Shown in pieces: positions 12,054 through 46,690 of a stretch of 64,000 nt of DNA. The position numbers and the translations under genes are program-made. The notes below the pieces were generated by a model. That model was not told the DNA's origin. It did not search any database and was given only the letters and a program-made list of their open reading frames with translations. The stretch comes from Trypanosoma brucei (Eukaryota). The first letter of the stretch is position 1; each line of letters begins with the position of its first letter. The stretch spans positions 1,472,001 to 1,536,000 of the forward strand of contig CP000067.1 of NCBI GenBank assembly GCA_000002445.1, given 5' to 3'.

Positions 12054-13238
12054 AAACTTATTGGAAATACTTTATTGTAGCAAACATTAATTTTTTTCTG
12101 GAAATATCTTAATGTAGTGGAATATGCATTTTTATGGAAAGATCTTATTATACGAAACCGTATCTTTGTTGAATTATCTTGGATAAATTTACATTCATCT
12201 TGGAAATATTTTATACAATTCTTAAATGTGCGTTTGTATTTCAACGCTTTTTGCAAACATGTGGAAATTTTGAGAGATCTTTTTTGTTGTTGTACAAATT
12301 TGATGTTTGAATGTAAAGTGATATGTTGATGGAGTGTCAAAAGTGGGTGCCATTAGGATTTTTACTATTATGGTTTATTCAATTAATTTTATGTTTACCT
12401 TTGAAAATGTAAATATATGCAAATCTTCTCCGGTGTTGTGGCCGGGGAGTATAATGTAGTATGGTAACGGTTTACGAATGAGAAATGAGTGCTATTCTGA
12501 AATTTTCTGTTTCGGTTTATTTGGTGTATCGTATGGATGTTAGTCAAGGTTATAAAAGTAATGGTAAGAGTGGTTGGAGTGACGATTAGGATGTTGGTAC
12601 ATTTGAATAACAAGGTCTTCCAAGGGAGGAAGAGATATGTATAAAGTACTGAAGGGCTGCAGAGGTGTTGTGTTAGGCATGATTGTGCACGGGAAGGAGT
12701 TGCTGCCGAAGCTTCTGATATACATGTGTTTCCAGAAACGATCAAATGCTGCGGAGCTTACGTGGGAAGAAAGTTTCGGAAGAGTTATGGGATGAGGGAA
12801 ATTCCCACTGCATTGTTTGAGCAGATTCACAACATGATAAGTGGAAGGTTGGTTGGAGAAGTGCGCAGGTACGCCACACCCAGTTGGCAAGAGATTGCAA
12901 TAGTCGGGTGCATGCCGGGAGTGATGACCCCACTGATAGTCAGGTCGCTAATAACGCTGAGGTTTGGAAAAAGCACACCTGAATTGATTTATCGGTGTAT
13001 CGAAGATCGAAAACATGATTAAGGCTCCCCAGTTACTGCATTCCCTCAAGGGGTTGCCGTTAAAAATATTTTTGTGCAAACTGTTTAAGTTATTATTGGG
13101 ACAACCGCTCTCTATTGCGGAACCACAAATTTCATCTATGACATACCTATAAATAAAAAGCCAAGTTCCAATCATCATCAACAACGAAGATAAAGGCACA
13201 AAGGCAACGAAACACATTACACGGAGGGAAAGGAGCCG

Positions 13239-14768
13239 ATGCAAGTTCAACGCACTACCAAAGAAGTGTTGCACAAAGCTGTTGCAGCAGCCGTGCCCGT
13301 GTTATTCATGACGCTGATGAGGTGCGGCATGGCGCAAACAGTAACGGAACCGTCTTCGGACAAAGTAACAAACCTCTGTACAGAGGCCAAGTATACAGCC
13401 CATCTGGCAGATCACATCGTAGCGGCGGCAGAAGAGCCGGAGCGCGAAATATCCGACATGCAAATTTATGCAGAGGCATGGAATCTCCTTGCAGCCAGCA
13501 CAAACCAAACAGACAAGCGTGCCGCGACATATGCCCTTGCCACGTACATGTCCACTGCGGCGGCAAAAGCAAAGCAGCTGCAAAACGGGAAATACAAAGC
13601 AGCAGTCTTGGCCGCTACCTACCTGCAAAGGAGATCAGCGCTGACACGAACATTGCAAGCTATGCGTGTAAAGGGACAGTCAGGAGCGGGACAAGTCACT
13701 AACCGACAAGGCGTCATCTCATCATGTTCACACAAGGAAACACCGACGTTAAGCGACGAAGGGGATTGCGGGCGACAAGGCAGTGATGCCAACCATCCAG
13801 AATCAATTGCCGTAAATTTAAGGACAGCGACTCACCTCAAACTGTTAGACAGCAGCAGGCTAAGACCGCTAGCGTTAAATCACTTAGCCGAAGTAGAAGG
13901 AACAGCGCCACCAGCAAAAACGGAAGTACAAGCCGAAGGCTGCAAGGCTGTGATAAGCATTGGCTATTATGCTAAATTCACAGCATCGACAAAAGAAAGT
14001 GACGACAACAGTGAAGTCAAAGCCATTAAGATATTCGCGGGTGACAATGCAAGTACAAATTGCGCTCTTCTGCACAACGCCGAAAGGAAATCAGAAAAGG
14101 ATAACGACCTACTGATCAACAAAATATGCAACTACATAAACAAACCTGATCCTCAGATAATAACCATATCCAATTTGACGCCTGCCATGTTAGCAAACAC
14201 GAGCACAGTCCAAATGGCGTTCAAAAGCTTCGTTCATGCAGCAACCGGTAAAGCACCTAGCGACGGCGAAATCGAAAACCAGCTTAAGAGCCTTTACGGA
14301 GGGGATGAGGTGACATTTACCAATGACTTCATAAAAATTCTGTGGACGAAGAACGTGACGTACCACACTGGCTCAGGATTCGTAACTGAGACATTTCTTG
14401 ATGCAGCTAAAAACGAAAACGCGCACAAGGTGCTCATCTATCTAAAAGGTCAAAGAGCGGCAGCACAGGCAAAACAACCAAGGACAAACGAGAGTGAAAT
14501 CAACGGCCCGGTCTGCGGAGGTGAGGGCCAAGAGGAGTGCAAATTGGATGAAAAGAAAGACCCGGAGAAACCGAACGGAACTCAAATGCGGAAATGGCCT
14601 AAAGCACTCCAGTGGATGATCACACGACAAGGAGGAAATTGCAAAACAATACAGCAAGAAGATTGTAAAGAAGACTGTACATGGGATGAGGGAGCTTGTG
14701 ACGGCGCAGTTGGCATTTCTGCTTCGATGAATATTTCTCTGTTCATGGCATTTTTGCTTCTAGCATAA
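13239..14768 (+). CDS. VSG-related / atypical VSG-like surface glycoprotein, array copy 4 (type A with type-B segments, mosaic), 509 aa
   Basis: Complete ORF. The N-terminal 140 aa and the upstream region match copy 1. One internal block (TPAMLANTSTVQMAFKSFVHAATGKAPSDGEIE) matches copies 2/3 rather than copy 1. The C-terminal 120 aa is shared by all copies. Confidence 0.7.
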   Translation: MQVQRTTKEVLHKAVAAAVPVLFMTLMRCGMAQTVTEPSSDKVTNLCTEAKYTAHLADHIVAAAEEPEREISDMQIYAEAWNLLAASTNQTDKRAATYALATYMSTAAAKAKQLQNGKYKAAVLAATYLQRRSALTRTLQAMRVKGQSGAGQVTNRQGVISSCSHKETPTLSDEGDCGRQGSDANHPESIAVNLRTATHLKLLDSSRLRPLALNHLAEVEGTAPPAKTEVQAEGCKAVISIGYYAKFTASTKESDDNSEVKAIKIFAGDNASTNCALLHNAERKSEKDNDLLINKICNYINKPDPQIITISNLTPAMLANTSTVQMAFKSFVHAATGKAPSDGEIENQLKSLYGGDEVTFTNDFIKILWTKNVTYHTGSGFVTETFLDAAKNENAHKVLIYLKGQRAAAQAKQPRTNESEINGPVCGGEGQEECKLDEKKDPEKPNGTQMRKWPKALQWMITRQGGNCKTIQQEDCKEDCTWDEGACDGAVGISASMNISLFMAFLLLA

Positions 14769-15549
14769 AAACTTATTGGAAATACTTTATTGTAGCAAAC
14801 ATTAATTTTTTTCTGGAAATATCTTAATGTAGTGGAATATGCATTTTTATGGAAAGATCTTATTATACGAAACCGTATCTTTGTTGAATTATCTTGGATA
14901 AATTTACATTCATCTTGGAAATATTTTATACAATTCTTAAATGTGCGTTTGTATTTCAACGCTTTTTGCAAACATGTGGAAATTTTGAGAGATCTTTTTT
15001 GTTGTTGTACAAATTTGATGTTTGAATGTAAAGTGATATGTTGGTGGAATGTCGAAAATGGTTGCTATTTAGAATATTTTTGCTATTATGGTTTATTCGA
15101 AGAAATTTATGTTTACCTTTGAAGATGTGAAAATGTTTAAATGTTTTCAAATGTTTTTGACTTGTGGGTATAACGTGGTAAAGTGATAGGGGTGTGAAAA
15201 ATGAGTGTGATTATGAAAACTTGCCATTTTGGTTTATTTTTTTGTAATAGATATTAAGAGTAGTTTAAGGTTATGATATTAATAGCAGTATAGTAATAGT
15301 GTGTGTGCCATATAAGTGCACATACTAACATTATGGTAAGAGTGGTGGTGCAGAACGACTGGAGACAAAATAGAAGCAGTTAAGCTGATGCCAAGGGCAC
15401 AGTGGGAGTTAGCAAGTGAGTGGGAGAGGAAGAGGACGAGGAGGATATTATTAAAACAAAAGCAGAAACACAGGTAGATGGAGAGAAAAGGTAATGAAAT
15501 ATGCGCAGTTTTTTTCATTGTACATTTATCCTGCTCGTGCTGCGGTAGA

Positions 15550-17905
15550 CTAGCTACTGCCCCTGTGGCTCTGCAAATTAGCAGGGGATGTTTAGCGCAA
15601 CCGCAATTTCATCTTCACTTGATCCAATGATACCTTGAAACTGATTGAGTATTCTGTAGATTTAGCTTCACGGGTACGTTTACGCATGGCTCTTGCAGTG
15701 CCAACCCCTAAAGACTTCGCTGCCGCAGAGTGGTGGTCAGTGGAATCCAACTCCGTTGGCGATCGGTGCCTCTTCACGGCTCAAGTGGGCCCAGATTTTT
15801 TCTCTAAGATTGGGGGGGGGGAGATGGTCTCTCTAGCTTGAAGAGCTCCTTCAGGAAGCTGGCTAGTTGTGTGCTGAAGAACACTTCCCCGTTCTTCAGG
15901 GTTTCTAGACCATGCTTTTCCCTTTAGCACTTGCAAGCTTGGGCATTCAAAGAGGTGCGCCGCAGCCTCGTTACACTCAACCTTCAGCAAGTAATGCTCA
16001 TTCTCCTTCCTCAGTTGGCCCTGCTTCGCCTGTATGTGCATCGTCAGGAACTTCTTTAGTGTGCAATTCATTGGGCAGTATGGGCACTGGAGTGATCTTT
16101 TCAGGAGAGGTGTCACCGCTACCGTGCCGTCCTTTAGTTTTCGTTTCACTGTCGTGGCGTGCGCGTATGCCAAACCAGTGAGCACCACTGCTTGTACACA
16201 CTGCTGTTTCCACCGCACACATTGTCCATTCCCTCTTTGCCTTCTGTGTGGCGGACTACCCGAAGACGCTTAGGCGGTCTTTCCCCATTGTCCCTTCCTG
16301 CTGACTCCAATGACTCACTCACCTCACTCTGTGCCTGAGCCTCTGCTCTCACTACCTTTCGCTTCGGCTTCACGCGTGGCTGAGGACGCAATGACTCGTC
16401 GTGACCCAGGTGCTTGGTCGGTATGCGTTGCGGTAACCATCTGTAATGATACTGCTTTCTACAAATGGAACACGCCACTGTAACTGACTGCTTCGCCACG
16501 TCCGAGTCTTCAGAGTTCGTGTTCGAGGTTGGTTCGTACTTGTGCCTGGTGGGCCATGTCTTGCTTTTGAGGACGCGTTGGCACCTGTAGCATACAAATT
16601 CCCTTTTATCCTGCTCCTCCTGCTCTGCCTCGCCATCACTACCGGACACGTCTTGTGGCTTCATAGCGCCGCGCGTTAACTGCTTTTCCGTGTGCTTCTG
16701 CAGCCACGCGTATACAGTGTACTTAATTGCGCACCAGCGGCACTTGAACGCTTTGCCATCATCGGCCCCATAATCCTCCCTAGCCCTTTTCGGACGCTCC
16801 TCCACGGCTGCCACTATATCTGAAAGTTGCTGTGCCATATGCTTCACGAGCAGCCCACGCCGCTCAAAGACATCGCACACATGTGACATCTGTACCCATT
16901 CTTATGCGTCTGCGCCGCACGCTTAGCTTTGTTGGTCAGAGCTAATGCACAATCCCTCTCCAGACCATGAATCTTCAGTAGGTGCACCACGCCAGCCTGT
17001 TGCCGCGCGCAAACCACGTTGCACAATGAGCAAATGATCGGGTCGATCAGCCTGGTTGCTATCCCAGGATCTGGTGCGTTCGCATTGTCCGCTGCTGACT
17101 CCGCCTCCGGGCGCTCTTCTGCTGTGTCGCTGCGTGGTTCCTGTGTGTCGCACCGTATGCATCCAAGCTGGTCCGTCTTGCGTGTGAGCGCCCTGTGGAG
17201 CCGTCCGAAATGCTTCGAGGTGCCTGTTCCGAACTGCGCCAGCACCGACTCGCCCAGACGCTCCAGCCTTGTGTGCTTCGGTGCGGCCCGAACGTAGTCG
17301 AGTAGCGCACTCCGATGCGTACGCTGCATGCGGCCCTTCTTGAAGGCCTTGTACATCGCATTCCAGACCTGTCACCACACACCCGTCGCTATGTCAGTGA
17401 TCCACGCGGGATACAACTACGGCTTTGCGTTTCCCTGCTCAGCTGCCTTGTCAGCTGCTTCATTTCGTGATGTTGGTAGCCAGCAACGCTAAAGCAAGCC
17501 GCCTCTCCAGGCGTCATTCTTGTCTCGCTCAACAGACAAAAGGCGATCCGCTCATCAACAAGGGTTTTGTGGAGTGCTAATCTCTTTCCTTGAGTTAGCC
17601 CGGCGCAGTTCCACTGCATCCCGCACAACGACGGGCCGGGATTCTCTTCCACATCACCGGACAGCAGCATCTTAGTGCGGATGATACTGCTGATGGCACG
17701 CTGGCACGTGCCCAGGGACCGACAAATGAAAAACGGTGTCCCAGCAAGACGCTGCTGATCCCTGTGCTGTATGATGCCGTAGCCGGAGCACAGCAGTGTT
17801 CCCCATGAGAAGAACGCTGCTGGCTCTTGGCTTCCCCCGATGATACGGGGTACTTGACCCTGGCACCACGTTGAGGTGGCCGGCATCTCTAGGGGTACTA
17901 TTACT
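15550..17905 (-). mobile_element. ingi/L1Tc-clade non-LTR retrotransposon remnant, internally deleted (5' region with 2A peptide and start of the AP-endonuclease domain joined to C-terminal C2H2 zinc-finger region; the RT domain is absent)
   Basis: Minus-strand ORF 17389-17886 encodes ...RTKMLLSGDVEENPGPSLCGMQWNCAGL..., a 2A-like motif followed by an APE-like start, as described for L1Tc/ingi. The 5' end (rc of 17,815-17,880) contains ...cctcaacgtggtgccagggtcaagtaccccgtatcatcgggggaagccaagagccagcagcg, consistent with the conserved 5' signature of ingi/RIME-type elements. ORFs 16844-17356, 16146-16889 and 15781-16218 carry repeated C-x2-C...H-x3-H motifs (FKCRWCAIKYTVYAWLQKH, FVCYRCQRVLKSKTWPTRH, CPYCPMNCTLKKFLTMH). 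Frameshifts occur between the ORFs. Exact ends are uncertain. Confidence 0.65.
17632..17655 (-). other. 2A-like self-processing peptide motif D-V-E-E-N-P-G-P within the retroelement ORF
   Basis: The reverse complement of 17632-17655 is gatgtggaagagaatcccggcccg = DVEENPGP, an exact match to the canonical 2A C-terminal consensus D(V/I)ExNPGP. Confidence 0.8.
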
Positions 17906-18217
17906 AGTTAACATATTTATGACAGTTTAATAAGATGATTCATTTTCATACTCTATTTGCCCATTATTTTGAAAAAATGTGCCACTTTCATAACAAAATG
18001 TTATACGTAAAATTCTAAATAATTTCTGTAGTTTATGCATTTTAATTAAATGCTTTTCAAATATATCATATTTTACCAAATATAGATAACTCTCTGTTAA
18101 TGGCAAATTTTGTGAAATAGAGCAAAATTCCTTAAAATAGAAATCCCACAAAATCAGCAGCGATTATAGCAAAATTTTATTTACAAAGAAAATTGAATTT
18201 TTGCAAGCATTATTTTC

Positions 18218-24382: not shown

Positions 24383-26052
24383 TTAGAGGTAAAATTCTAC
24401 CAAACTCATAAAAGCAGCAGCCATACTCAGACCAAATTTCTTATTGACAAGAAAACCGCTATTTCGGCACTTTTCCTTTTCTGTATCCTTATCATCTTCA
24501 CCATCTTTACCCTTCCTCCATGCGCAATTTTGTTTTTCGCCTGTTTTGTCAGCTTCACAATTAGACATATTTGGTGTGTTGCACACACAGGTTTATCAGC
24601 TGCGTGTTCTGCATCTCTTGTTCCTACTGCTGTGTTTTCTTTTCCTGTCTCTTTAGGTTTGCATTCCTTTTGGGTTTTGTCATATTCGCAGTGTGTTTTC
24701 GGACACTCTGCTAGGGTATTGTTCTTTTTGGGGCAGCTCTTGCCGTTGATATTTGTGTCTTTGCCTTTCGGTGCTTGTACAGCAGTTCCTGCCACGGGCG
24801 TTTGTGCAGGCAAGGCGGCTGCCATCGCCAGACTGTAAAAAAAGTCGGTTTGTTTTTCTGTGAGTGCTATTTGCTGCGCAATTCGGTTAGCGGTTTCGAT
24901 TTTCCTTGCTTGGGATTCTAAATCTTATGCTGCTGTGTAAAGTCGCTGGATCCATGGGATGCCTGAAATCCCTTTTCCGGTGGTCTTTGCAAAAAAATTG
25001 TCATAGCTTACACACAGTTTTAAGGACTGGCCGTCGCAGGTTGCGACGTTTAGGCCTCCGAGGTAAACCAGTGTCTAGCTCGCTGACGTTTTTCTGCCTA
25101 GAGTCGACTCGAAGCTATGTATCGCGCCTGTAAAAGCGTTTGCGGTAAGCTTCGGCTTCGCTTGTTGCGGACATGTTGCCTTGAGGGTTGTCCAGTGGGT
25201 GTCCGGATTCGTGATGCTGACTTCCCAGTTCTGTTGCGTGTAGCCGGCCGGGCATTCGCTGGCGCCTGTGTCGGCGCCGTTGCAGAGGCAGAGAAAGTCG
25301 CCGATTATCGATCGGCCTGTTTTGGCCGCTGCACATGTTGTCGTCCAGCCTGCGGCCCCATCCAGTGTGTTTTTTGTGTCGACTTTTGTGCTTGTTCCAT
25401 CGCCCCCGTATAGGGCGGCGTTGAGTTCCTTTTGTATCTTTGCTGGCAGGGTGGTTGTCTCCTCTGTTTTTACCAGATTGTATTGATGCTGCAGTTCCTC
25501 TAATTTGGCGGCGTTTTGTTCTATGATCGAATGAAGAAAGCGTCTTTGTTGCTCATCCGGTATTTTTTTGTATTTGCTGTGCTCTTCTGTCCCAGTCTTT
25601 GCGTCTGCCGCCCTCTTGGCTGCCGACCACCAGTCTTGCCACTTGTCTCCCCAGTCTTTGCCATACGAAGACGATTCGTACACTGCCGGCATTTTTTCGC
25701 CTTGCTCTTTTGCTAGTTTTGTATCGAACAGCGCCAGCCAGTTGTCGTCGCTTGTTTTTAAATTGAGTTCAAGAATCGCTTGCAGCGAATTGCCTTTGTC
25801 TGCTGTGATCGACGCCGGGGCTTGCTGTGCTGACGCCATGGCCTGTAACCGACACATGATTCCATGGGCTTGAGCGTTGTCGTCCGCTGCGCTGCTCGCT
25901 GGCCGGATAGCATAAGTTAAGTAAGCTAGCACTGCTAGTACGCAAGTGTAAGCACGCACGGGGTGGTGTGGACCGTAAGCAACTAAGTATATTAGAAAAA
26001 GACAGAAACCTACTGGAAAAAAACGTTTTTGTACATAATTATGTAATACCAA
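24383..26052 (-). pseudogene. VSG pseudogene (B-type N-terminal domain; frameshifts in the C-terminal domain)
   Basis: ORF 25075-26052 has a signal peptide plus VSG N-domain. ORFs 24427-24825 and 24383-24586 carry C-terminal Cys motifs and the GPI signal ...SGFLVNKKFGLSMAAAFMSLVEF in two other frames. Confidence 0.75.
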
Positions 26053-27934: not shown

Positions 27935-28000
27935 AAAATAGTTCCACACGCTAACAACGAACTCCTATCATTATTATTATTATCACTGTATTAATGCCCT
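27935..28000 (-). repeat. Degenerate 70-bp-repeat-like element upstream of the VSG pseudogene 24383-26052
   Basis: ctcctatcattattattattatcactg block at the expected position. The core is degenerate. Confidence 0.35.
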
Positions 28001-28289
28001 AATTAATATCCACAATGCAAAAAATGAACCAAATTAGAAATTTATATATGAGTACGCATTTGTTATACCCCATTACTCTAATATCTTGCACCTGTAATCC
28101 ACTTTTACACACACTTTTTAAAATTTGCAGATTTATATCAAAAAATGTTAAAAGATATCAGATGTCATTATATTTTTAAAAATTTTAACAAATGCTTACA
28201 AAATAGCAAAATTTCATAAAATTAATAAATGTGAACAAAAATCATTAGAATTATATTAAACTGACAAAAGTAGAACCCATACTTAGAGC

Positions 28290-28650
28290 CAATTGCTTAT
28301 TGACAAGAAAACTGGAAGAGCGGCACTCCGGGTTGGGAAGTTTGCCAGTACCATCAACATAATCTATCCATCCACATTACGTGGTGCGTTGACTGCCAGT
28401 CCTTCATTTTCTTTTTCGCAATTCTTCTTACTGTCATGTTTCTTGCAGTCAGTTTTCCCATTATTTTCTCCTGCTTTTTCTGCTGCTTTTTTTTCCTTCC
28501 TCACTCGACGTGCACTTTTTGCCATCATCGGCTTTGGGGTTAAAACACACCTCTGGTATCTGAGTGGGTTTAGACATTGTCCAGCAACAAATGATTCTGC
28601 CACTGAGGGTTAATTGCTGTTTTGATAATCGGCTACCCCACAAATATTAT
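28290..28650 (-). pseudogene. Orphan VSG 3' fragment (C-terminal domain only)
   Basis: Minus-strand ORFs 28364-28603 and 28461-28643 encode Cys/Lys-rich VSG C-terminal-type sequence (CKKHDSKKNCEKENEG..., GKKCTSSEEGKK) with no N-terminal domain upstream. Confidence 0.55.
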
Positions 28651-29080
28651 TTGTTATTTATTTCCCATTTAAAAGCAAATCGTATTGAGCAGCGAAACTG
28701 TCACGTTCCAGCGTTAAAAAAAGCCGCGGTCAGCGCAAAATGAAGAGCTGAAATTCACAAAAGTGTAAAAGTAGAATCGTAACAAATAGCCAGCAAGGCT
28801 GAGTCGGAAAATTTAAGCAAAGATATTTTATGGATAAATAATGGTTAGGGTATACACAAAAAACAAGACCCGCTGCATCACATAAAAATAATAAATTAAA
28901 AATACTAACCATAACCCTCCTTTTCTGTCGTTTCCTATTTGAAGAGAGGTTTAAAAAGACAAAAAAAAATTTTTTAAAAAACGGCGAAAGATTTAAGAAA
29001 ATTATCAAAAAACTCAAAAACGTCGAAGAATCCAAAGTTTAAAAAATTAATTAAAAAGTCTAAAAAAATTTAACGGGAAC
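28628..29080 (-). other. Telomere-adjacent-type AT-rich element with decayed telomere repeat (taaccataaccct at ~28,905-28,920); homologous to 42,960-43,495
   Basis: 28,628-28,775 aligns with 43,160-43,330 (cggctaccccacaaatattatt...agcgaaactgtcacgttccagcg...gaaattcac). A degenerate CCCTAA remnant lies at the position where the other copy has 15 perfect repeats. Confidence 0.6.
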
Positions 29081-29166
29081 AGGAAATATTTTTTTTGCTG
29101 TCAGAAAATATTTTTGACAGAATCAGAATTTTTACAAACACAGCTCAGTTTGTCAGGTAAATTTAG

Positions 29167-29182
29167 GTGTTAAAATATATCA
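29167..29182 (-). promoter_or_regulatory. VSG 3'UTR conserved 16-mer TGATATATTTTAACAC (minus strand)
   Basis: Plus strand reads gtgttaaaatatatca, the exact reverse complement of the 16-mer known to govern VSG mRNA stability. Confidence 0.8.
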
Positions 29183-29209
29183 AACAGTAAATTTCTTTAG
29201 GTACAGGGG

Positions 29210-30767
29210 AAAAATTAAAACAACAATGCCGCACAAGCAGAAACAATCATTGCAAATTGTTTGCTTGCTAGAAAACTACCATTTCGGCATTTCTCCGCTT
29301 CCTTGTCATCTTCATTATCTTTTCCCTCTCTCCAGTCACAAGTAGCTGGCTTCCCTGGTTTATTGACTTTTTCGCACTTTGGCTTTGTGTCAAGTTTACT
29401 TCAATCTGCACCGGTACTTGCCCCTCCAGTTTCTTGGTTATCTTTTTCTAGCTTTTCTTTTATTTCCTTTTTCAGTGTGCACTTTTCCCCCTTATCATTG
29501 CTCTCCACAAAATGGCAATTTTCTGTAGTGTTACATACTTTTGCCTCAGTGTCTGTGATTTTATTACAAACGTCTTCTGGTTTATTTGCCGCAGTACTGG
29601 CTTTCTTTTTAGGTCTGATATTTCTTTGTTTTTGGAAGCTATAGTGGCCACCGTTACTGTTAAATAGAAATCCATTGCTTTCTCTAGTTCAGTGGTGTCT
29701 GTCTTGTCTCCAAGGTTTTCTGGTTTAGATGGATCTGCCCAATAGGACTTTGAAAGAATTTGTGTTGTATAGAATGGATTCCAGAATTCTTTTTGAAAGT
29801 TGGCCGGTGAGTCGGTTTTGAACATGGCTTTGAGCTTGACGTCTGGCTGCTCGATGGTTTTTCCGCCATTTGCTTCTGATGAGGCTTGCTGGAATTCCTC
29901 ACTCTCAGCTATTTTGGATCCAGTGCTATCCGTAATCACTGCCTCAGCGCTTACAATTGCTTGATAGTCAGCTTCAACTATCACGGTGTGAAGTGTCGGT
30001 CTGTGCGTTGCACTTATTACCGTGGTCGGCCATATGTTGTGGTCTGTTGCTGCGCCGCCCACCGCCCATAGGCCGTCCCCTAGCTTGACAGTTCCGCTAC
30101 CACTCGTTACTAGGTGATGCGTGGTGCCGTTGCCTTTCGTTATGACACAGTTCTTGTTACGGGTTGGTACTGGGTCCACTCCACCAATTTTGTTGTTCCT
30201 GTCTTTCACGGTTGCCGTTTCTACCTTCTGTATTGCCGTAAGCAACGTTTGAGGTGTTATTGCCGTCGCTAATTTGCCTTCGGCTTCAAAAGTTGCAATG
30301 TCCGCCAGCTTGCTACTGCCAGGAAAGCAGCTAGGTAGATCCGTTGCGGCTGCCGTTTGGTCGCTTGAGCTACTTTGTGACAGAAATCTGTCCGTGGCGC
30401 CTTTGGCATGAAACATCAGCATTATCGCTTCGTCCATGCGCCCAGCCGCTAGGCCGGCGTCCGCTGCTTTTGTTGCTGCGGTTACCAGTCTTGTTCGAGA
30501 TTTCCTGGCTTTTGTTTCCAGTTTTGCTGCTCCTCCTTTCTTGTTGGTTAGAATCTTGTACAGGCGCGCTTTGAGAACCTGCCGTCCGATAGATGCGATT
30601 TTGGCGTCCGCTGTTGACACAATAGCTGTGAATCTGGCCGGGGTTGCTTTGAGGCCAGTTGTCAACTTGCAGACGATGTTAACCGCAGTAGCTAGTAGTG
30701 GGTCACCGTCGTTGCAGTGAACACTGCTTGAGGCAAACACCAGTGAAAGTGCCAGAAGAAAGTTCAT
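29210..30767 (-). pseudogene. VSG pseudogene (431-aa N-terminal ORF; frameshift before the C-terminal domain; GPI signal ...NGSFLASKQFAMIVSACAAL in another frame)
   Basis: ORF 29472-30767 has a signal peptide (MNFLLALSLVFASSSVHC) and VSG N-domain. The reverse complement of 29215-29500 encodes a Cys-rich C-domain plus GPI signal out of frame. Confidence 0.7.
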
Positions 30768-31299: not shown

Positions 31300-31392
31300 A
31301 CGAAAGTTATTCTATATCTATATCTATATTTATATCTATATCTATATCTATATCTATATTTATATCTATATCTATATCTATATCCAAAGCAT
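31300..31392. repeat. Microsatellite (TATATC/TATATT)n
   Basis: Direct read of the sequence. Confidence 0.95.
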
Positions 31393-32084
31393 CTATTACT
31401 TGTTTCTATCACTATCGCTTATCCTCTGTTAATTTTAAGGGTTAGGTTTGACTCGAAGTAAACAGGTACCGTTTTTTCCTCTTCTGCTGAAAGTATTCGC
31501 TCATCCACTTACGCCATACAGACTGTGTCGCTGTATTTCTCCGTCGTTTAGGCTGCATAAATTGGGTCCAGAAACTTGTTTTCAGATACTTTTGCTTTAT
31601 AAACTTTGCCTTTACCCCTTCGTCAGTAAAAGCAATTATATTGATCATTCGCTCTTGAAAGAGGTTAGCGTCTTCTCAGTGCGTCACTAGGGGTTCCAGG
31701 AGTATCACCGCTGATTGAGCCCGCTTCATAGATATCCTCCTTTGGCTCATATGCGCGCATTCTCATTCCTTTGTCGCCGGTCTTTACTGGGGGTTTAGGC
31801 AGAAGCGTCTCCTTCTGCTTCTGTTACGTAAAAGATAGTAACTACATTTGGTCCATTTACTACGCTGTGCCACTTGATGATTTCTGCCACCATATTCTTT
31901 CTTATGATGATCTATTATTACGTATTTTCTTCGCAATGCGTATAATCCATTCCCTCTCTGCATTTTATCTAATAATATACCTGGTCGCTTCTCCATACTC
32001 TTTCCAACTCATACACTCCCATTACATCTTCACCAGTGTTTTAAGTGCTTTTTCGTCTCTGCCCCTTTCGTCCTCAACATCATC

Positions 32085-32180
32085 CTTATTATAATATTAG
32101 TGTATACACACTCACAAAACTCTCTTAGTATCATTATTATTACTGTTATTTTTACTATTATTACTAATACTATCATAAAC
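32085..32180 (-). repeat. 70-bp-repeat-like element upstream of the VSG pseudogene 29210-30767
   Basis: cttattataatattagtgtatacacactcacaaaactc plus tcattattattactgttatttttactattattactaat. Confidence 0.6.
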
Positions 32181-41477: not shown

Positions 41478-42314
41478 TTCTTGGGGTAGTGCCTTGGGGT
41501 TAGCTTAGTTTTGAAGACGGTCTACCGCTTGGTTGCCGTTTTTAGTATTGAGCTTTGTTCGCTTTTGTATACTTACGCATTTTAGACGGGATAATGGGGG
41601 TCTTGTGATGTGGCATTTATCCGCTTTCTTGTTGAATACAGTAAGCGCCGGGATGCTCGTGCGCTATGAGCTGCTTGCGCAGTGTATCTCATTTTTATGC
41701 TTCATTTTGGCACTTTTATTTTTTTAGAACAGTTTGCAATATTGTCTTAGTCCTTGTTTTCGTTGTCTTCCATCTGATATCTGGGCTTTCGCTCTGTTCT
41801 CTGACGTTTGCGTCATCTCATTATTTAATAAACCACTTCCACTCGTTTGTTTGTCTGCGCCAATATACATCATTTACTTTTGTACATGCCACCAACATAT
41901 ACAAATATCCGACAACGTTGTGCGCCGCCGCAGACTTATAACCACAATAATTGTGGTTTATCGTGAGAGGTTTGTGCGTCTTCCTCTATACACAAGTTTT
42001 TATATCAGTTTCGCAATAGATCTTAGGTACTTTTGTGCAAACAGAGGCGTTACCTGGTTACTTCGCTGCGTATCCCCACTTTTTGGAAAGATCTTGTGCT
42101 ATAGCGGTTTCCAACCATGCTATCAAAATAAAGGTGAGAATTTCTGCTTGTATTGCAACCCTGTTTTGCTTGGGTGCGGCTTCTTCATACTAAAGATTCT
42201 GCTGGTACAATGCATAAATTTCTCTTTATACCACTATTTATATTTAAGTTGATCCCAAACGTGTCTGAAGACATCATTTGTCTTATGTTCCTAGAAGTTC
42301 ATCACTGTTCTTAC

Positions 42315-42400
42315 AATAATAATAAACACACTCACAACACTCTTCTATCATTGCAATTATTATTATCATCATTATTATTATTACTATTAAAACTCTACCA
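42315..42400 (-). repeat. 70-bp-repeat-like element
   Basis: aataataataaacacactcacaacactcttctatcattgcaattattattatcatcattattattattactatt. Confidence 0.6.
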
Positions 42401-42649
42401 ATCTAAACAAATAAAACAATTTTGTAAAAATTTATAGTAGTATTAATTTTTTACACCGTATAAATCTGATACTTCACATATTTGGGACATTTTCACACAA
42501 AATTTTTAAACTTTTACAAATTTCCATATTATCTTTAAAAAATTTTAAAATATATTTATAAATCTCATAAAATAGAAAAGTTCATATATTTATAAAATTA
42601 TGCAAAAAATCTTTTACCAATATTTTTTAGAAACTCAATTATATAAGCA

Positions 42650-42960
42650 AAAATACAAGCAAAATTGGGTTTCTATCACAAAAGAATTGATCCCTCTGGC
42701 GTTTGTTTTCCCTCTTGATTCGGTCCATCTACCTGTTTTGGTTTGTAATTCGGATCTTTTACGCACTTTTTATTTTCGGCTTCACTACCCACTCTGCAGC
42801 CACCTTCGCTGTCATCTCCTGCTCCTTTTTTTTTTGCAAGTTTCGTCTGTTTCTATTATTTTTGGCGGTTTTGCGTTGCCTTTTTGTTGCCGCTTTGTTG
42901 CATGTGCGTGGTAACGCAAAACCTGAGGTGCACGAAAAAAACTTAGCTCCCGCGTAAAAA
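42650..42960 (-). pseudogene. Orphan VSG 3' fragment (C-terminal/GPI-signal-encoding region)
   Basis: 42,650-42,720 (gcaaaaatacaagcaaaattgggtttctatcacaaaagaattgatccctctggcgtttgttttccc) is homologous to the 3' ends of the intact VSGs at 36,160-36,240 and 20,840-20,900. Upstream Cys-encoding segments are present, but there is no N-domain. Confidence 0.55.
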
Positions 42961-43495
42961 AAAAAACCGGCGTATCACTAAAAAAATTAAAAACATGCTT
43001 TGAAAAAAATTTAGACTTAAAAAAACATAATTTCGTAAAAGAGAAAACAAATTAATCAAAAAAAATTAGCGAGATTAAAAAACTGAGCACCTGGCAATTG
43101 AGCGGCTTTGGCTGTCGGGTGCCAGTAACAGATTGTGTAACAGCGATTTTGTTACTGATTTTGACAATCGGCTATCCCTTAAATATTATTATTTTTTTCC
43201 TTAATTTCCCTTTGAAAGCAAATCATTGTGATCAGCGAAACTCCACGTTCAAGCGTTTTTTAAAAAATTTTGAAGCCGCGCGCAGCGAGAAATGCAGAGC
43301 TGAAATTCACCAAAGCAAAAAAAAAAGTCGAATTGACACTGCAGAAAAAAAAATATGCAGACGAAGATTCCTGCTTGATAAATAAGGTTAAGATCCCGCG
43401 TAAAAAAAGAGCCGCTGCATCGCTAATAATTTAAAAAACGGTGAATTATAAAAGAATAAAAAAAAGTAAATTAAAAAACAATCCTCAAAATTAAA
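42960..43495 (-). other. Conserved AT-rich telomere-adjacent-type element (second copy; homolog of 28,628-29,080)
   Basis: Blocks are shared with 28,590-28,775 (gattttgacaatcggctatccc..., ...agcgaaactccacgttcaagcg..., ...cagagctgaaattcac...). Lies between the telomere-repeat tract and the orphan VSG 3' fragment. Confidence 0.6.
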
Positions 43496-43497
43496 AA

Positions 43498-43590
43498 CCC
43501 TAACCCTAACCCTAACCAGATAACCCTAACCCTAACCCTAACCCTAACCCTAACCCTAACCCTAACCCTAACCCTAACCCCCCTAACCTA
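43498..43590 (-). repeat. Interstitial telomeric repeat tract: ~15 x CCCTAA on the plus strand, i.e. (TTAGGG)n on the VSG-coding strand, with one interruption (ccagat)
   Basis: Direct read: ccctaaccctaaccctaaccagataaccctaa(ccctaa)n...cccccctaacc. Confidence 0.95.
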
Positions 43591-43730
43591 CCTGCACAAA
43601 AAAAAAACTCCAAAAAAAACGGGAAAAGAGGAAAAAAAAATTTAAAGTTGCCAGAAATTATTTGTTACAGAATCACAAATTTTTACAAACTTACAAAAAC
43701 ACAGTTCAATTTTTTCGGGGAATTTTTTGG

Positions 43731-43746
43731 GTGTTAAAATATATCA
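43731..43746 (-). promoter_or_regulatory. VSG 3'UTR conserved 16-mer TGATATATTTTAACAC (minus strand), belonging to VSG 43810-45360
   Basis: Plus strand reads gtgttaaaatatatca, ~65 nt downstream of the VSG stop on the coding strand. Confidence 0.85.
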
Positions 43747-43809: not shown

Positions 43810-45360
43810 TTAAAACAGCAAGGCCACAAAAGCAGCAGAAACCATGCTGAGGGCGAATTTCTTGTTTAAGAGAAAACTGGAAGAGCGGCACTTTTCCTTT
43901 TCTGGTTCTGTTTCCCCATCTTTACCCTTTCTCCATCCACAAACAGGACTAGATTTTCCGGTGTTTTCAGCCTCACATTTAGTTTTCTCAGTATGGCTAG
44001 CACAGTTTGGAGTTGTGGCATCTCCTGTTCCTGCTACCTTGTCTTCTGTTCCTGCTTTAGGTTTGCACTTGTTTTCCTTTTCGTCATGGTCGCAGCCAAG
44101 TTTTTTGCATTCTTCTTTTGTTTGGTTGGTCTTCTGTTTGCAGTGGTGTTGTTTTCCGTCTTCGCCGTCTGTTTTCTTGCTTTGTGTTTCGGTTTGTGCT
44201 GCTGCTGGTTTTCCCATCATGTTGTACCGTGTCGCAGAGTATGCGGTTTGTATTGCGTCTGCTAAAATTTTGATGTGTTTGCTTGATGTCTCTGTGTTTT
44301 TCGCTGCGGCTTCTGCTTTGCGCAGTGCCTTGGCTGCTTTTGCAAGGTGGTTTAGCCAAGGGATGTTTAGGCCGCCTGTGATCGCGCTGTGCTTTCCGCT
44401 GTCGCTGGCGTATATCGCGCATGCTTGGCTGTTCGCCCCGGTGCACGTCCCGAGGTTAACTTTGCCTAAGTAATGTATAACGTCATTTCCTGCGCCTTTG
44501 GCGCTGCGCACCCTGCCTACTATGCGTTGTACTAAGGCTTCTAGGTCGCCTGCCGTGTATTCGGCCGGTTTAAGTGTTTTGCATTTGGCCTTTAATTGTG
44601 ATATGACGCTTTGATCGTTGCCTCCGCTCCACTTTATGGCGATGACTGGGTCTGCGCACTGGTCGCTGGTGTCGGCTGATTGTGTGCCGCAGATACACAT
44701 TACGTCGCCGTAGATAGAAAGGCCCGCGTTCTTTGCGCAGCCGTTTGCGTACGTCGCTGCGTGTTTTATTGTCTTTCCGTCCGTGAACTTTGGTTGCGTT
44801 ACGCCGGTCCCGTAGAGCGCTTGTATCAGCTCGTCTTTGGCTTCGTTTGGGTACGTTTCCGTTGCTTCTGTTGTCGCTGTTTCGAGCGCCGCTTGTTGTT
44901 TTAGTAGCTGTCTTAGGGTTGAGTTTATTTTTTCCGCGGCTGCCTGTAATGCTGGCGCTGAGGCGGGCCGGGGGTTTAGGGTCAGCCACTTACTTTGGCC
45001 AGTGCCGCTGTCAACTGTTTCTTTGTCCTCCACCCATTTATCATAGTCTGCTTCCCAGTGAGATTTGAACGGTTCACCTGTTACTTTTTGCTTTTTTGCT
45101 TCCCAGCTGTTTTTGCTCTTGCCGCCTACGAATATTTCTTGCCAGGTTTCGTCGGCGGCTGACATGTTTAGCGCCCTCGCATGCTTTATTGTCGTTTCGG
45201 CGGAGTCTGCCGTTGTGAGTTTGGTTGGCTCTGCGCCGTCTAGGGCTATTGCGGTGCAAAGCAACTGCAAGTCTGCTGCGTTGTCAGCTTGAAACGACGC
45301 TAGTGCCGGTGAAGTCAACGCTAGTGCGATTAGAAATATCTTGGACCACTGTCCTATCAT
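43810..45360 (-). CDS. VSG: Variant surface glycoprotein, full-length intact ORF (516 aa), immediately followed downstream by 3'UTR and TTAGGG repeats
   Basis: Signal peptide MIGQWSKIFLIALALTSPALA. B-type N-domain. C-domain with canonical GPI signal ...CRSSSFLLNKKFALSMVSAAFVALLF. Confidence 0.85.
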   Translation of the reverse strand: MIGQWSKIFLIALALTSPALASFQADNAADLQLLCTAIALDGAEPTKLTTADSAETTIKHARALNMSAADETWQEIFVGGKSKNSWEAKKQKVTGEPFKSHWEADYDKWVEDKETVDSGTGQSKWLTLNPRPASAPALQAAAEKINSTLRQLLKQQAALETATTEATETYPNEAKDELIQALYGTGVTQPKFTDGKTIKHAATYANGCAKNAGLSIYGDVMCICGTQSADTSDQCADPVIAIKWSGGNDQSVISQLKAKCKTLKPAEYTAGDLEALVQRIVGRVRSAKGAGNDVIHYLGKVNLGTCTGANSQACAIYASDSGKHSAITGGLNIPWLNHLAKAAKALRKAEAAAKNTETSSKHIKILADAIQTAYSATRYNMMGKPAAAQTETQSKKTDGEDGKQHHCKQKTNQTKEECKKLGCDHDEKENKCKPKAGTEDKVAGTGDATTPNCASHTEKTKCEAENTGKSSPVCGWRKGKDGETEPEKEKCRSSSFLLNKKFALSMVSAAFVALLF

Positions 45361-46544
45361 CTGTCAGTTACAAGTCTTATCAGTTTGTAAGTGGGAGAGA
45401 TTGGTGTTGTGGCGTGTCAGTTGTCACAGCTTGACTTGATCAGGGTTCCGATAGATTATAAAACAATTTTTTTATCAATGCGCTTTGCAACTGGGTTGGG
45501 CTTAATCTTTTCTTTGTTTCTGCCTCTTCTTATGGCGTCAGTCGGTTTTGCTTTGCTGTAATATCCTTCCTGTGACTTGGGTTGCTCCTTACTGAATAAC
45601 CACACGTGCCTCCTTCAAATGCAAAATCCTCTGCAAAAACGTCTGCTGTCCTGCTTTTCTGATCGGCAGTACGCTGCATTGCCGTTCTGCATGTCCTCGA
45701 TTCAGCAGTCATTTCGATGGGTTTGTCATGTGTAGTTTTTTCCGACAGATTTTAAGTTTTGCAACGTGTCGGATGAGAAACATAGGAGATTTATTAAAAA
45801 TACACTTGCTTTATATGAAGAATCTTCACTTTAACGTCTAACGGATACCACTTTATATATATCTTAAATCTTTGATATTTATTCTAACTGTGCTCATGTT
45901 TCAAGGTCAATCCTGTTAGTTAGAGTCATGTGCAATCATGTTAAAACGGTGCTGCTTTCCACGTACGCTTCACTCCGACCATGACGCATCGCTATCCTGG
46001 TCTATCGCCGATCTATATCTCCTATTGTTCGAGAATTACAGTCCTTCCTGCATTATTTTGCTTTGATAGTTTCTGATGCGTTACATAAACACCACATCAG
46101 TGTATGTTCTCATATAAATTACTCGTTAGTTGGAAACTGTAGCCGGTTCTCTTCTACACAAATATGGTGGTGGTAGTGCATAATCGTTAACTTTATCTTC
46201 CCTATTAAAATCCTCTGCCGTGGCCCATCTGCAATTTTTTACTCTTCTGGTGCGTACTTTTGGTTTGTCTTTTTTCAGTCGCCTTCCCCTTTGGTATAGC
46301 TGCGTCTGAAAACTGTCCAAAGCTTCTACGATCGGGTCGGTTGCTGCCTCTTTGACAGCAGCCCCATGTTCTTTCGCTTAATGATTGATCGTTCTTTTCT
46401 CCGTTCGAGAGCGCGTATAATTCATTAATTTCTTCCATTACACTTTTTATTGTTATTTATGTTAGCGCTGCCACAGTCTTTCTCGGTCATTTACTATTAT
46501 TGTACATATTCGCTATTTTTTTTGCTTCTACTTTGCAAAGAGAT

Positions 46545-46690
46545 TTGGTTCTTACCATTATTATTAAAATATTCGTATACACACACTCACAACACACTCC
46601 TATTATTATTATCATTATCATTATTATTACTGCTTACATTATAATAGTCGTATACATACACTCACAACATGTTCCCCTACTACTATCTTT
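46545..46690 (-). repeat. Two tandem 70-bp-repeat-like units upstream of VSG 43810-45360
   Basis: attcgtatacacacactcacaacacactcctattattattatcattatcattattattactg and a second unit tcgtatacatacactcacaacatg.... Confidence 0.7.

What the first reader, a model, noticed from the sequence alone, without database searches (positions are those of the whole stretch)
28290..30767. Second, decayed copy of the same VSG - telomere-remnant - element - VSG 3' fragment module
The module is repeated 14 kb away: VSG pseudogene 30767 to 29210, a 3'UTR with the identical 16-mer (29167-29182), a degenerate telomere remnant (taaccataaccct, ~28,905-28,920), a homologous AT-rich element (28,628-28,775 aligns with 43,160-43,330), and an orphan VSG 3' fragment (28,650 to 28,290). 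The spacing between the element and the telomere remnant matches the other copy to within a few tens of bp. Two copies at different decay stages argue for a real, propagated structure rather than a one-off artefact. They also date the event: the TTAGGG tract has eroded to ~2 units in one copy.
Basis: seen in the sequence. Interest (0 to 1): 0.7.

Follow-up and report, generated by a model that had tools for sequence, protein, structure and literature searches.

The report
Telomere-type VSG flank inside silent array
The repeated module is real, but its TTAGGG stretch is most likely the short telomere-like tract that normally follows telomere-adjacent trypanosome coat-protein (VSG) genes, carried into an internal gene array by recombination, rather than a worn-down chromosome end.

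Summary
The window is a Trypanosoma brucei TREU927 subtelomeric VSG array.

**Observation: confirmed.** 28,250-30,767 holds, on the minus strand:
- a frameshifted A-type VSG pseudogene
- a 3'UTR with the exact 16-mer
- a 14-nt TTAGGG-like remnant
- a conserved 150-nt non-coding element (77% identical to 43,152-43,315, E=1e-17)
- an orphan VSG C-terminal fragment with its own 3'UTR and a 70-bp repeat

All blocks are colinear with the copy at 42.6-45.4 kb.

**New evidence.** Two of three Trypanosoma equiperdum VSG contigs I fetched carry the same architecture. One of them also has the element. So this is a family of cassettes, not a two-copy oddity.

**Interpretation: revised.** The flanking VSGs and the orphan fragments are unrelated between copies. 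Only the 3' flank is shared. Tract length is 2-13 units between conserved flanks. The VSG221 expression site is reported to have an internal T2AG3-like tract at the same position, and that tract seeds new telomeres after breaks.

I therefore read the module as a telomere-proximal-type VSG 3' flank moved into an internal array, with the displaced gene's C-terminal stub left behind. Erosion "dating" is not supported. The conserved element remains unexplained. Interest is moderate to low.

The parts
29215..30767 (-). VSG pseudogene A. A-type N-terminal domain, with a frameshift near 29,590, an in-frame stop near 29,395, and a GPI-signal tail ending at the TAA at 29,215-29,217.
   Evidence: Pfam PF00913 E=6.4e-13 on ORF 29,472-30,767. 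blastx to VSG C-terminal domains in a second frame, E=1e-20.
28919..29214 (-). 3'UTR and proximal flank of VSG A, expressed/telomeric type (C-run after the stop codon). The exact 16-mer TGATATATTTTAACAC lies at 29,167-29,182.
   Evidence: Exact 16-mer found only here and at 43,731-43,746. 29,099-29,182 aligns with 43,649-43,746 at 80-86%.
28905..28918 (-). Degenerate T2AG3-like tract (AGGGTTATGGTTAG, about 2 units), 297 nt downstream of the VSG A stop codon.
   Evidence: The distal junction is colinear with copy B: 28,893-28,918 vs 43,488-43,513, 88%.
28800..28904 (-). T-rich spacer carrying the 'U' motif GATGCAGCGG...GTATACCCTAACCATTATTTATC. The motif includes a telomere-like unit in inverted orientation (TTAGGG on the + strand at 28,845).
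   Evidence: The motif is shared by A, B, L001 and L002.
28614..28763 (-). Conserved non-coding element 'E' (core). Profile homology extends over 28,527-28,884.
   Evidence: 77% identity to 43,152-43,315, E=1e-17. 96% over 29 nt and 73% over 126 nt to L001. nhmmer profile hits only A, B and L001.
28254..28547 (-). Orphan VSG C-terminal-domain fragment, frameshifted. VSG-like sequence may extend up to about 28,610.
   Evidence: blastx E=5e-9 to VSG C-terminal domains; the 28,547-28,473 segment matches the VSG at 49,320-50,795, aa 432-456.
28065..28253 (-). 3'UTR of the orphan fragment, array type, with a degenerate 16-mer at 28,145-28,160.
   Evidence: nhmmer VSG-3'-end profile, 28,328-28,065, E=6.4e-46. 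16-mer with 2 mismatches.
27945..28000 (-). Degenerate 70-bp repeat that opens the next cassette (the VSG at 24,386-26,052).
   Evidence: Read directly: GATAATAATAATAATGATAGGAGTTCGTTGTTAGCGTGTG.
43810..45360 (-). Copy B: intact B-type VSG (516 aa). Its 3'UTR 16-mer is at 43,731-43,746.
   Evidence: PF13206 E=1.9e-67 and PF10659 E=8.8e-23. 100% identical to a TREU927 VSG.
43498..43590 (-). Copy B T2AG3-like tract: TAGGTTAGGGGGG, then (TTAGGG)9, then TTATCTGG, then (TTAGGG)3. It starts about 220 nt after the stop codon.
43380..43497 (-). Copy B T-rich spacer with the U motif (U2).
   Evidence: Direct repeat of 42,935-43,081, 67-72% identity. Aligns with A and L002.
43152..43315 (-). Copy B element E. 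A short VSG-like stub follows at 43,082-43,151.
42935..43081 (-). Copy B second T-rich/U unit (U1), absent from copy A.
42453..42925 (-). Copy B orphan VSG C-terminal fragment (42,638-42,925, of a different type from A's) plus its 3'UTR. A 70-bp repeat follows at about 42,300-42,400.
   Evidence: blastx E=0.003 and 0.07. nhmmer 42,715-42,453, E=6e-15. 70-bp core at 42,327-42,342.

Best explanation
The region is one member of a family of silent VSG cassettes whose downstream flank is of the telomere-proximal type. Read along the gene strand, the order is:

1. VSG
2. an expressed-type 3'UTR with the exact 16-mer
3. a short T2AG3-like tract 150-390 nt after the stop codon
4. T-rich DNA carrying a GC-rich 'U' motif
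5. in three of four copies, a conserved 150-200-nt non-coding element E

In an internal array this flank ends on the C-terminal stub, 3'UTR and 70-bp repeat of what I take to be the resident array gene it displaced.

**Shown:** the anatomy, the colinear homology, the recurrence in T. equiperdum, and the unrelatedness of the flanking coding sequences.

**Inferred:**
- A telomere-adjacent VSG cassette was copied or recombined into the array. The upstream join was in or near the 70-bp repeat. The downstream join was in or just before the resident gene's C-terminal domain.
- The flank then spread by cassette duplication and by gene conversion of the coding parts.

The TTAGGG stretch is not a decaying chromosome end. 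It is the counterpart of the internal T2AG3-like tract that lies just downstream of VSG221 in its expression site. Experimentally, that tract acts as a seed for new telomere formation after a distal break. At this internal site the module probably has no current function. It would be a latent telomere seed and a block of extra 3' homology with expression sites.
For: **Colinear homology A vs B**
- 3'UTR, tract junction, U motif and E all align in order.
- E and U occur nowhere else in the 64 kb.

**Same architecture in T. equiperdum**
- It is present in L001 and L002, which were fetched through unrelated VSG proteins. L003 lacks it.

**Only the flank is shared**
- The N-terminal domains are A-type vs B-type.
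- The orphan C-terminal fragments are of different types.
- Upstream regions share only the 70-bp repeat.

**Link to expressed-type 3' ends**
- The exact 16-mer occurs at the three module VSGs that can be read, and at none of the other roughly 15 VSG 3' ends in the window and loci.
- Their 3'UTRs carry the C-run also seen in the VSG221 3'UTR primer TTTCCCCCCTCAAATTTCCCC.

**Orphan fragments look like normal cassette ends**
- All four orphan fragments lie directly distal to a module. Each keeps the normal 250-300-nt spacing to the next 70-bp repeat.

**Tract behaviour**
- Tract length varies from 2 to 13 units between homologous flanks.

**Literature**
- An internal T2AG3-like tract lies downstream of VSG221 (AJ271641 nt 211-322, 106 bp). 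All mapped telomere-healing events fall within it (PMC1807955; PMC3610638).
- VSG-to-telomere distances in expression sites are 200-1590 nt (PMC2567434).
Against: - I could not compare the module with any genuine telomeric VSG flank (AJ271641, the expression-site clones, minichromosome ends). It is therefore not shown that U or E lie between the T2AG3-like tract and the terminal repeats at real telomeres.
- Copy B has 12 perfect hexamers. The VSG221 tract is described as degenerate. Perfect repeats fit a recently synthesised telomere better.
- The E-to-VSG-stub junction falls at the same place in A, B and L001. This could mean a single old junction event rather than a general flank type.
- The sample is small: four modules among about 19 VSG 3' ends. 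The T. equiperdum contigs are not a random sample.
- The remnant in copy A is only 14 nt.
- No recombination step was observed.
Confidence: 0.55

Rival explanations
1. The TTAGGG stretch is what is left of a true terminal telomere. A chromosome end carrying a VSG and a critically short telomere was joined to other DNA (U, E, a broken VSG) by end-joining or fusion. Copy A is an older, more eroded duplicate of that scar.
For: - G-strand repeats lie on the coding strand 220-300 nt after the VSG, exactly as at a chromosome end, and within the 200-1590 nt range (PMC2567434).
- Copy B has 12 perfect units.
- Sequence distal to the tract has no detectable relation to VSG 3' ends.
- The U motif contains a telomere unit in the opposite orientation.
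Against: - An internal T2AG3-like tract of similar size and position exists in the VSG221 expression site, upstream of the real telomere (PMC1807955).
- Four loci with unrelated VSGs share homologous sequence on both sides of the tract.
- Short tracts (2-3 units) are the rule, including perfect (TTAGGG)3 in L001. Length therefore does not track decay of the flanks.
- A head-to-head fusion would put an inverted VSG beyond the tract. The next VSG fragment is in the same orientation instead.
Confidence: 0.2
2. A recurrent 'landing pad', analogous to yeast X-(TG1-3)-Y' organisation. A shortened VSG-bearing telomere invades a pre-existing internal TTAGGG tract on another subtelomere and copies everything distal to it by break-induced replication. 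Each event buries a formerly telomeric VSG in front of the same U-E-stub sequence.
For: - Different VSGs and different proximal flanks sit upstream of a homologous distal flank.
- B shares its proximal flank with L002 (z=3.3, 0/300 shuffles) but shares E with A and L001.
- Tract length is variable.
- B looks compound, with two U units and two VSG stubs.
Against: - The proximal/distal incongruence rests on short T-rich sequences and is weak.
- L002 lacks E, and its junction to the C-terminal fragment differs from B's.
- Nothing shows long-range paralogy distal to the tracts.
- Gene conversion of the coding parts explains the same pattern.
Confidence: 0.12
3. Telomerase-mediated insertion at an internal double-strand break, as for short interstitial telomeric sequences in vertebrates. 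This would include read-through copying of telomerase RNA (TERC-ITS) to give the adjacent element.
For: - The precedent exists in mammals (PMC2246262, PMC8537989).
- The tract is flanked on one side by unexplained non-coding sequence.
Against: - T. brucei telomerase RNA has a template-boundary hairpin with loop UCUCGU immediately 5' of the template at nt 339-349 (PMC8643685).
- The DNA next to the tract is A/T-rich. I saw no ACGAGA/TCTCGT and no evident stem there, by eye.
- The tract lies at a fixed position relative to a VSG 3'UTR in four loci. That is not expected for random breaks.
Confidence: 0.03
4. Assembly artefact or chance resemblance.
For: Subtelomeric arrays are hard to assemble. 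The copy A remnant alone is near the level of chance.
Against: - Two copies occur in one clone-based assembly.
- Two more occur in an independent assembly of another taxon, with the same order of parts.
- The E alignment gives E=1e-17.
Confidence: 0.02

Closest known systems
Internal T2AG3-like tract downstream of VSG221 in bloodstream expression site 1 (AJ271641 nt 211-322; Glover et al. 2007, PMC1807955; Glover et al. 2013, PMC3610638)
   Same: - A short run of TTAGGG-like repeats on the coding strand.
- It lies a few hundred nt 3' of a VSG with an expressed-type 3'UTR.
- It is about 100 bp long, starting with irregular T1-2AG1-6 units. Copy B begins TAGGTTAGGGGGG and spans about 95 bp.
   Different: - That tract lies in a telomeric expression site, with the real telomere further downstream, and is described as degenerate.
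- Here the tract is in a chromosome-internal array and is followed by another VSG cassette.
- Copy B is nearly perfect and copy A nearly gone.
- Sequence identity to AJ271641 could not be tested.
Conserved sequence organisation 3' to telomeric VSG genes (Aline & Stuart 1989, as cited by Hall et al. 2013, PMC3708902)
   Same: TTAGGG-like repeats are used there as a hallmark of telomere-proximal VSG flanks.
   Different: I could not read the primary paper. Whether its conserved blocks correspond to U or E is unknown.
Interstitial telomeric sequences between subtelomeric repeats in budding yeast (X-TG1-3-Y'); from general knowledge
   Same: Internal telomere tracts lie in the same orientation as the terminal tract, between repeated subtelomeric modules, and vary in length.
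   Different: Different organism and different elements. The recombinational origin is inferred here, not shown.
Short interstitial telomeric sequences and TERC-ITS of vertebrates (PMC2246262, PMC8537989)
   Same: A few to a dozen canonical hexamers at a non-terminal site.
   Different: - Those are inserted de novo at random break sites, sometimes with telomerase-RNA-derived flanks.
- Here the position relative to a gene is fixed and the flanks are conserved.
- There is no sign of telomerase RNA sequence.
C-terminal VSG gene fragments in silent arrays and '3' donation' (Hall et al. 2013, PMC3708902; array census from my own knowledge of Berriman 2005 and Marcello & Barry 2007)
   Same: Orphan fragments encode only the C-terminal domain plus 3'UTR, in cassette position.
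   Different: Here every orphan fragment seen (4 of 4) sits immediately distal to a telomere-type flank. I did not find that link stated in the papers available to me.

Membership tests
T. brucei silent VSG cassette | VSG N-terminal domain recognisable by Pfam | tested here: met
   PF00913 E=6.4e-13 for copy A. PF13206 E=1.9e-67 for copy B.
T. brucei silent VSG cassette | C-terminal domain with GPI-signal tail, and a 3'UTR with the 16-mer TGATATATTTTAACAC | tested here: met
   blastx to C-terminal domains, E=1e-20, tail SACAALLF*. Exact 16-mer at 29,167-29,182.
T. brucei silent VSG cassette | 70-bp repeat upstream of the gene | tested here: met
   70-bp core at 32,107-32,122 upstream of A and at 46,582-46,597 upstream of B. 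The upstream regions of A, B and L001 share only this repeat.
Telomere-proximal-type VSG 3' flank (as in the VSG221 expression site) | T2AG3-like tract on the coding strand, a few hundred nt 3' of the VSG | tested here: met
   - B: about 95 bp, starting about 220 nt after the stop codon.
- L001: (TTAGGG)3 at +386 nt. L002: at +152 nt.
- A: only 14 nt with one mismatch, at +297 nt. This is inconclusive on its own.
- Reference description in PMC1807955.
Telomere-proximal-type VSG 3' flank (as in the VSG221 expression site) | Sequence similarity to a documented telomeric VSG flank (e.g. AJ271641) | not testable with these tools
   No T. brucei telomeric sequence is reachable. TREU927 proteins could not be looked up.
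Telomere-proximal-type VSG 3' flank (as in the VSG221 expression site) | Terminal telomere repeats further downstream | tested here: not met
   An orphan VSG fragment, a 70-bp repeat and more than 25 kb of further VSG cassettes follow. The flank is no longer at a chromosome end.
Interstitial telomeric sequence | Tandem canonical telomere hexamers at a non-terminal site | tested here: met
   Copy B has (TTAGGG)9 plus (TTAGGG)3, with tens of kb on both sides. Copy A has about 2 units and is borderline.
TERC-ITS (telomerase RNA read-through) | The sequence adjoining the repeats is complementary to telomerase RNA 5' of the template | tested here: not met
   TbTR has a template-boundary hairpin with loop UCUCGU just 5' of the template (PMC8643685). 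The adjoining DNA is A/T-rich. I saw no such motif there, by eye. This is an indirect test, because the TbTR sequence itself was not available.
Known RNA or protein family for element E | Match to Rfam, a predicted protein, a VSG 3' end, or a stable fold | tested here: not met
   - No relevant Rfam hit at E<=1; the one hit, at 45,298-45,428, is outside the module.
- No protein homologue.
- Not hit by the VSG-3'-end profile.
- Local alignments to VSG 3' ends are within the shuffle range in 8 of 9 pairs; the exception is E_A vs the L001 VSG 3' end, z=2.7.
- Folding z-scores range from -0.15 to +2.2.

The most novel reading that the evidence does not exclude
The T2AG3 tract plus the U-E-stub unit would be a recurrent recombination joint through which telomeric VSGs are archived into internal arrays. 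That could include VSGs newly assembled in an expression site. A short VSG-bearing telomere would invade an existing internal tract and copy the distal array. E would mark the conserved distal border of such events, much as the 70-bp repeat marks the upstream border. The same tracts would let an array break heal into a new telomeric VSG.
Probability: 0.12. Interest if true: 0.7.

Novelty: new member of a known kind. Interest (0 to 1): 0.35.

Why it matters
It is unclear how VSG genes move between telomeres, where they are expressed and reshuffled, and the large silent archive.

Cassettes inside an array that still carry a telomere-type flank are footprints of that traffic. They also offer an origin for the many orphan C-terminal VSG fragments. 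In this small sample, every orphan fragment lies just beyond such a flank.

The internal TTAGGG tracts are also candidate sites for telomere-protein binding and telomere seeding, and they add 3' homology during VSG switching.

None of this changes current models. It adds a countable sequence signature that could be surveyed genome-wide.

Tried and rejected
- **Telomerase-RNA read-through as the origin of the element.** Rejected indirectly. TbTR has a template-boundary hairpin with loop UCUCGU next to the template. The flank here is A/T-rich with no such motif.
- **E as a decayed VSG tail plus 3'UTR.** This was suggested by a translation FALVNFSSAF resembling the GPI signal. It is not supported. 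A profile of VSG 3' ends finds every real end but not E. Local alignments to VSG 3' ends are within the shuffle range in 8 of 9 pairs; one reaches z=2.7.
- **E as a structured RNA or known RNA family.** No relevant Rfam hit. Folding z-scores are not negative.
- **E as coding sequence.** The 95-aa ORF across it has no homologue.
- **More copies of E in public DNA.** A 21-mer scan of metagenome contigs gave two hits whose similarity ends at the seed (37 nt at most), so they are chance matches.
- **Fetching the TREU927 locus or other TREU927 arrays.** Look-ups failed. Only T. equiperdum contigs were reachable.
- **Pfam confirmation that the other VSG 3' ends belong to full-length pseudogenes.** No hits on the broken ORF pieces. 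That point rests on ORF layout only.
- **Literature.** I found no paper in the held library describing interstitial telomere repeats in T. brucei arrays. Marcello & Barry 2007, Hall et al. 2003 and Aline & Stuart 1989 were not available.
- **Shared upstream regions between module VSGs.** Only the 70-bp repeat is shared.
Full report
**Source of the window**

The intact VSG at 43,810-45,360 (minus strand) is 100% identical to a Trypanosoma brucei brucei TREU927 VSG. That VSG lies on a 1,590,432-bp record; from memory, this length matches chromosome 4. From about 16 kb to 64 kb the minus strand carries a silent VSG array. A profile of VSG 3' ends finds 16 ends there, and most are followed by a 70-bp repeat 250-370 nt downstream.

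**Checking the observation**

- **VSG A.** It runs from 30,767 to a TAA at 29,215-29,217. Its 431-aa ORF matches the A-type VSG domain (PF00913, E=6.4e-13). The C-terminal domain follows in another frame after a frameshift near 29,590 and contains an in-frame stop. It is therefore a pseudogene.
- **16-mer.** The exact 16-mer occurs only at 29,167-29,182 and 43,731-43,746.
- **Element.** 28,614-28,763 aligns with 43,152-43,315 at 77% over 166 nt (E=1e-17). There is no third copy in the window. At 38% GC it is not notably AT-rich.
- **Orphan fragment.** 28,254-28,547 matches VSG C-terminal domains (E=5e-9). It keeps its own 3'UTR (nhmmer E=6e-46) and is followed by a 70-bp repeat at about 27,945-28,000.
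- **Telomere-like remnant.** 28,905-28,918 is the weakest item. Two-unit matches with one mismatch occur at three other places in the window outside the 43.5-kb tract, against 0.43 sites expected in total. What supports it is position. The sequence from the remnant into the distal flank aligns with the end of the tract in copy B, 23 of 26 bases.

**What is and is not shared between the two copies**

- The upstream VSGs are unrelated. A has an A-type N-terminal domain and B a B-type one.
- The orphan C-terminal fragments are of different types.
- The upstream regions share only the 70-bp repeat.
- Copy B is also more complex. It has two T-rich U units (42,935-43,081 and 43,380-43,497). A short VSG-like stub follows E, before the second U unit and the orphan fragment.

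What is propagated is therefore a 3' flank, not "the same VSG".

**Related loci**

TREU927 DNA could not be fetched. Three T. equiperdum OVI contigs were reachable through VSG proteins 27-33% identical to each other and to VSG B. Two of the three carry the same architecture.

- **L001.** An intact VSG, the exact 16-mer, (TTAGGG)3 386 nt after the stop codon, two U motifs, then E. E is 87% identical to B over 60 nt and 96% to A over 29 nt. An orphan C-terminal fragment homologous to A's follows, then a 3'UTR and a 70-bp repeat.
- **L002.** An intact VSG and a T2AG3-like tract 152 nt after the stop codon. About 1 kb of T-rich DNA follows, with a ~410-bp repeat that contains the U motif. There is no E. 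An orphan C-terminal fragment related to B's follows, then a 70-bp repeat.
- **L003.** Ordinary cassettes without any of this.

Across the sample:
- 4 of about 19 VSG 3' ends carry the module.
- All four C-terminal-only fragments lie just distal to one.
- The exact 16-mer, with a C-run 3'UTR, is found at the three module VSGs that can be read and at none of the other roughly 15 ends.

**What the TTAGGG tract is**

Homologous sequence flanks the tract on both sides in several loci. B and L002 even share the motif TTTTTGTGCAGG just before it. Tract length is about 2, 2.5, 3 and 13 units.

The literature gives a close counterpart:
- In the VSG221 expression site, the only T2AG3-like tract lies between VSG221 and a marker inserted upstream of the telomere. 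It is described as AJ271641 nt 211-322: 46 bp of T1-2AG1-6, then 10.5 degenerate repeats.
- All mapped de novo telomere additions after telomere deletion fall within that tract (PMC1807955; also PMC3610638).
- Hall et al. [quoted passage not shown]
- Expression-site VSGs lie 200-1590 nt from the telomere repeats (PMC2567434).

The tract is therefore best read as a normal component of a telomere-proximal-type VSG flank. It is not the eroded end of a chromosome, and its length cannot date an event.

**What element E is**

It remains unexplained.
- It has no relevant Rfam match and no protein homologue.
- It shows no excess folding stability.
- It has no consistent similarity to VSG 3' ends, despite a tempting translation.
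- Its junction with a VSG-like stub (…CCGCTCAAYTGCCAGG…TTTTTAAC) is at the same place in A, B and L001. These three copies therefore probably descend from one junction.
- It contains a pyrimidine run followed by AG. I did not pursue this.

**Most likely history (inferred, not shown)**

1. A VSG at a telomere acquired or retained the usual flank: 3'UTR, T2AG3-like tract, T-rich/U sequence, and possibly E.
2. The cassette with this flank was copied or recombined into an internal array. It replaced a resident gene from the 70-bp repeat down to the start of its C-terminal domain.
3. The resident gene's C-terminal stub, 3'UTR and next 70-bp repeat were left in place.
4. Duplication of cassettes and gene conversion of the coding parts then produced a family with unrelated VSGs but a shared flank.

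I give this 0.55.

**Rival explanations**

- A recurrent yeast-like mechanism, in which short telomeres invade internal tracts and copy the distal array: 0.12.
- Telomerase insertion at a break: 0.03.
- Artefact: 0.02.

The first two rivals differ from my reading mainly in whether U and E lie inside or beyond the original chromosome end. Only a comparison with genuine telomeric flanks can decide that.

**Novelty and verdict**

All of the following are known:
- T2AG3-like tracts 3' of telomeric VSGs
- interstitial telomere tracts in subtelomeres
- orphan C-terminal VSG fragments
- 3'-end exchange between VSGs

In the papers available to me I did not find the combination described as a recurrent internal-array module, nor element E, nor the link between such flanks and orphan fragments.

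I class this as a new member of a known kind.

Noticed in passing
window 5,030-14,768 (+): Four tandem VSG-like genes on the opposite strand (509, 540, 540 and 509 aa). The two middle copies are identical at the protein level. All have an unusual C-terminus (...CTWDEGACDGAVGISASMNISLFMAFLLLA*). Their 3' ends barely match the VSG 3'-end profile (E=0.001-0.04). Pfam sees only a weak C-terminal-domain hit, in one ORF of the two scanned.
   Followed up: partly
window ~15,000-18,000: The plus-strand and minus-strand gene arrays converge here. Overlapping minus-strand ORFs of 170-250 aa (16,149-17,907) have no Pfam match.
   Followed up: partly
window 28,842-28,857; 43,386-43,400; L001 4,386-4,400; L002 3,352-3,366 and 3,763-3,777: The GC-rich U motif distal to each TTAGGG tract contains a telomere-like unit in the opposite orientation (GCGGACCCTAACCCT on the gene strand). 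Each module therefore holds a short inverted telomere repeat 60-110 nt from the tract.
   Followed up: partly
L002 3,200-4,195: About 1 kb of very T-rich DNA with a ~410-bp direct repeat (TTAACGACAGGTTGCTGA...GATGCAGCGGC...GGACCCTAACCCTCCTCCCCCCC). From memory, it resembles the GC-rich/AT-rich subtelomeric repeats reported for minichromosome ends. This was not checked.
   Followed up: no
window 29,167-29,182 and 43,731-43,746; L001 3,923-3,938: The exact 16-mer and a C-run 3'UTR occur only at VSGs that carry the telomere-type flank. The other array VSGs have a different 3'UTR class (…GAGAGAATTTGNTAA…) with 1-3 mismatches in the 16-mer.
   Followed up: partly
window 31,311-31,384 and 31,438-31,449: A (TCTATA)12 microsatellite and a nearby plus-strand AGGGTTAGGTTT lie in the region between the 70-bp repeat and the start of VSG A.
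   Followed up: no
window 42,935-43,081 vs 43,380-43,497: Copy B contains an internal direct duplication of the T-rich/U unit, 445 bp apart, bracketing element E. This suggests two nested events or a fragment of a longer tandem repeat.
   Followed up: partly
window 28,730-28,760; 43,290-43,315; L001 4,610-4,640: The most conserved part of element E is a pyrimidine-rich run ending in AG (TTTTGTGAATTTCAG|CTCTGCATTT). It has the form of a trans-splice acceptor, but no ORF follows in frame.
   Followed up: no
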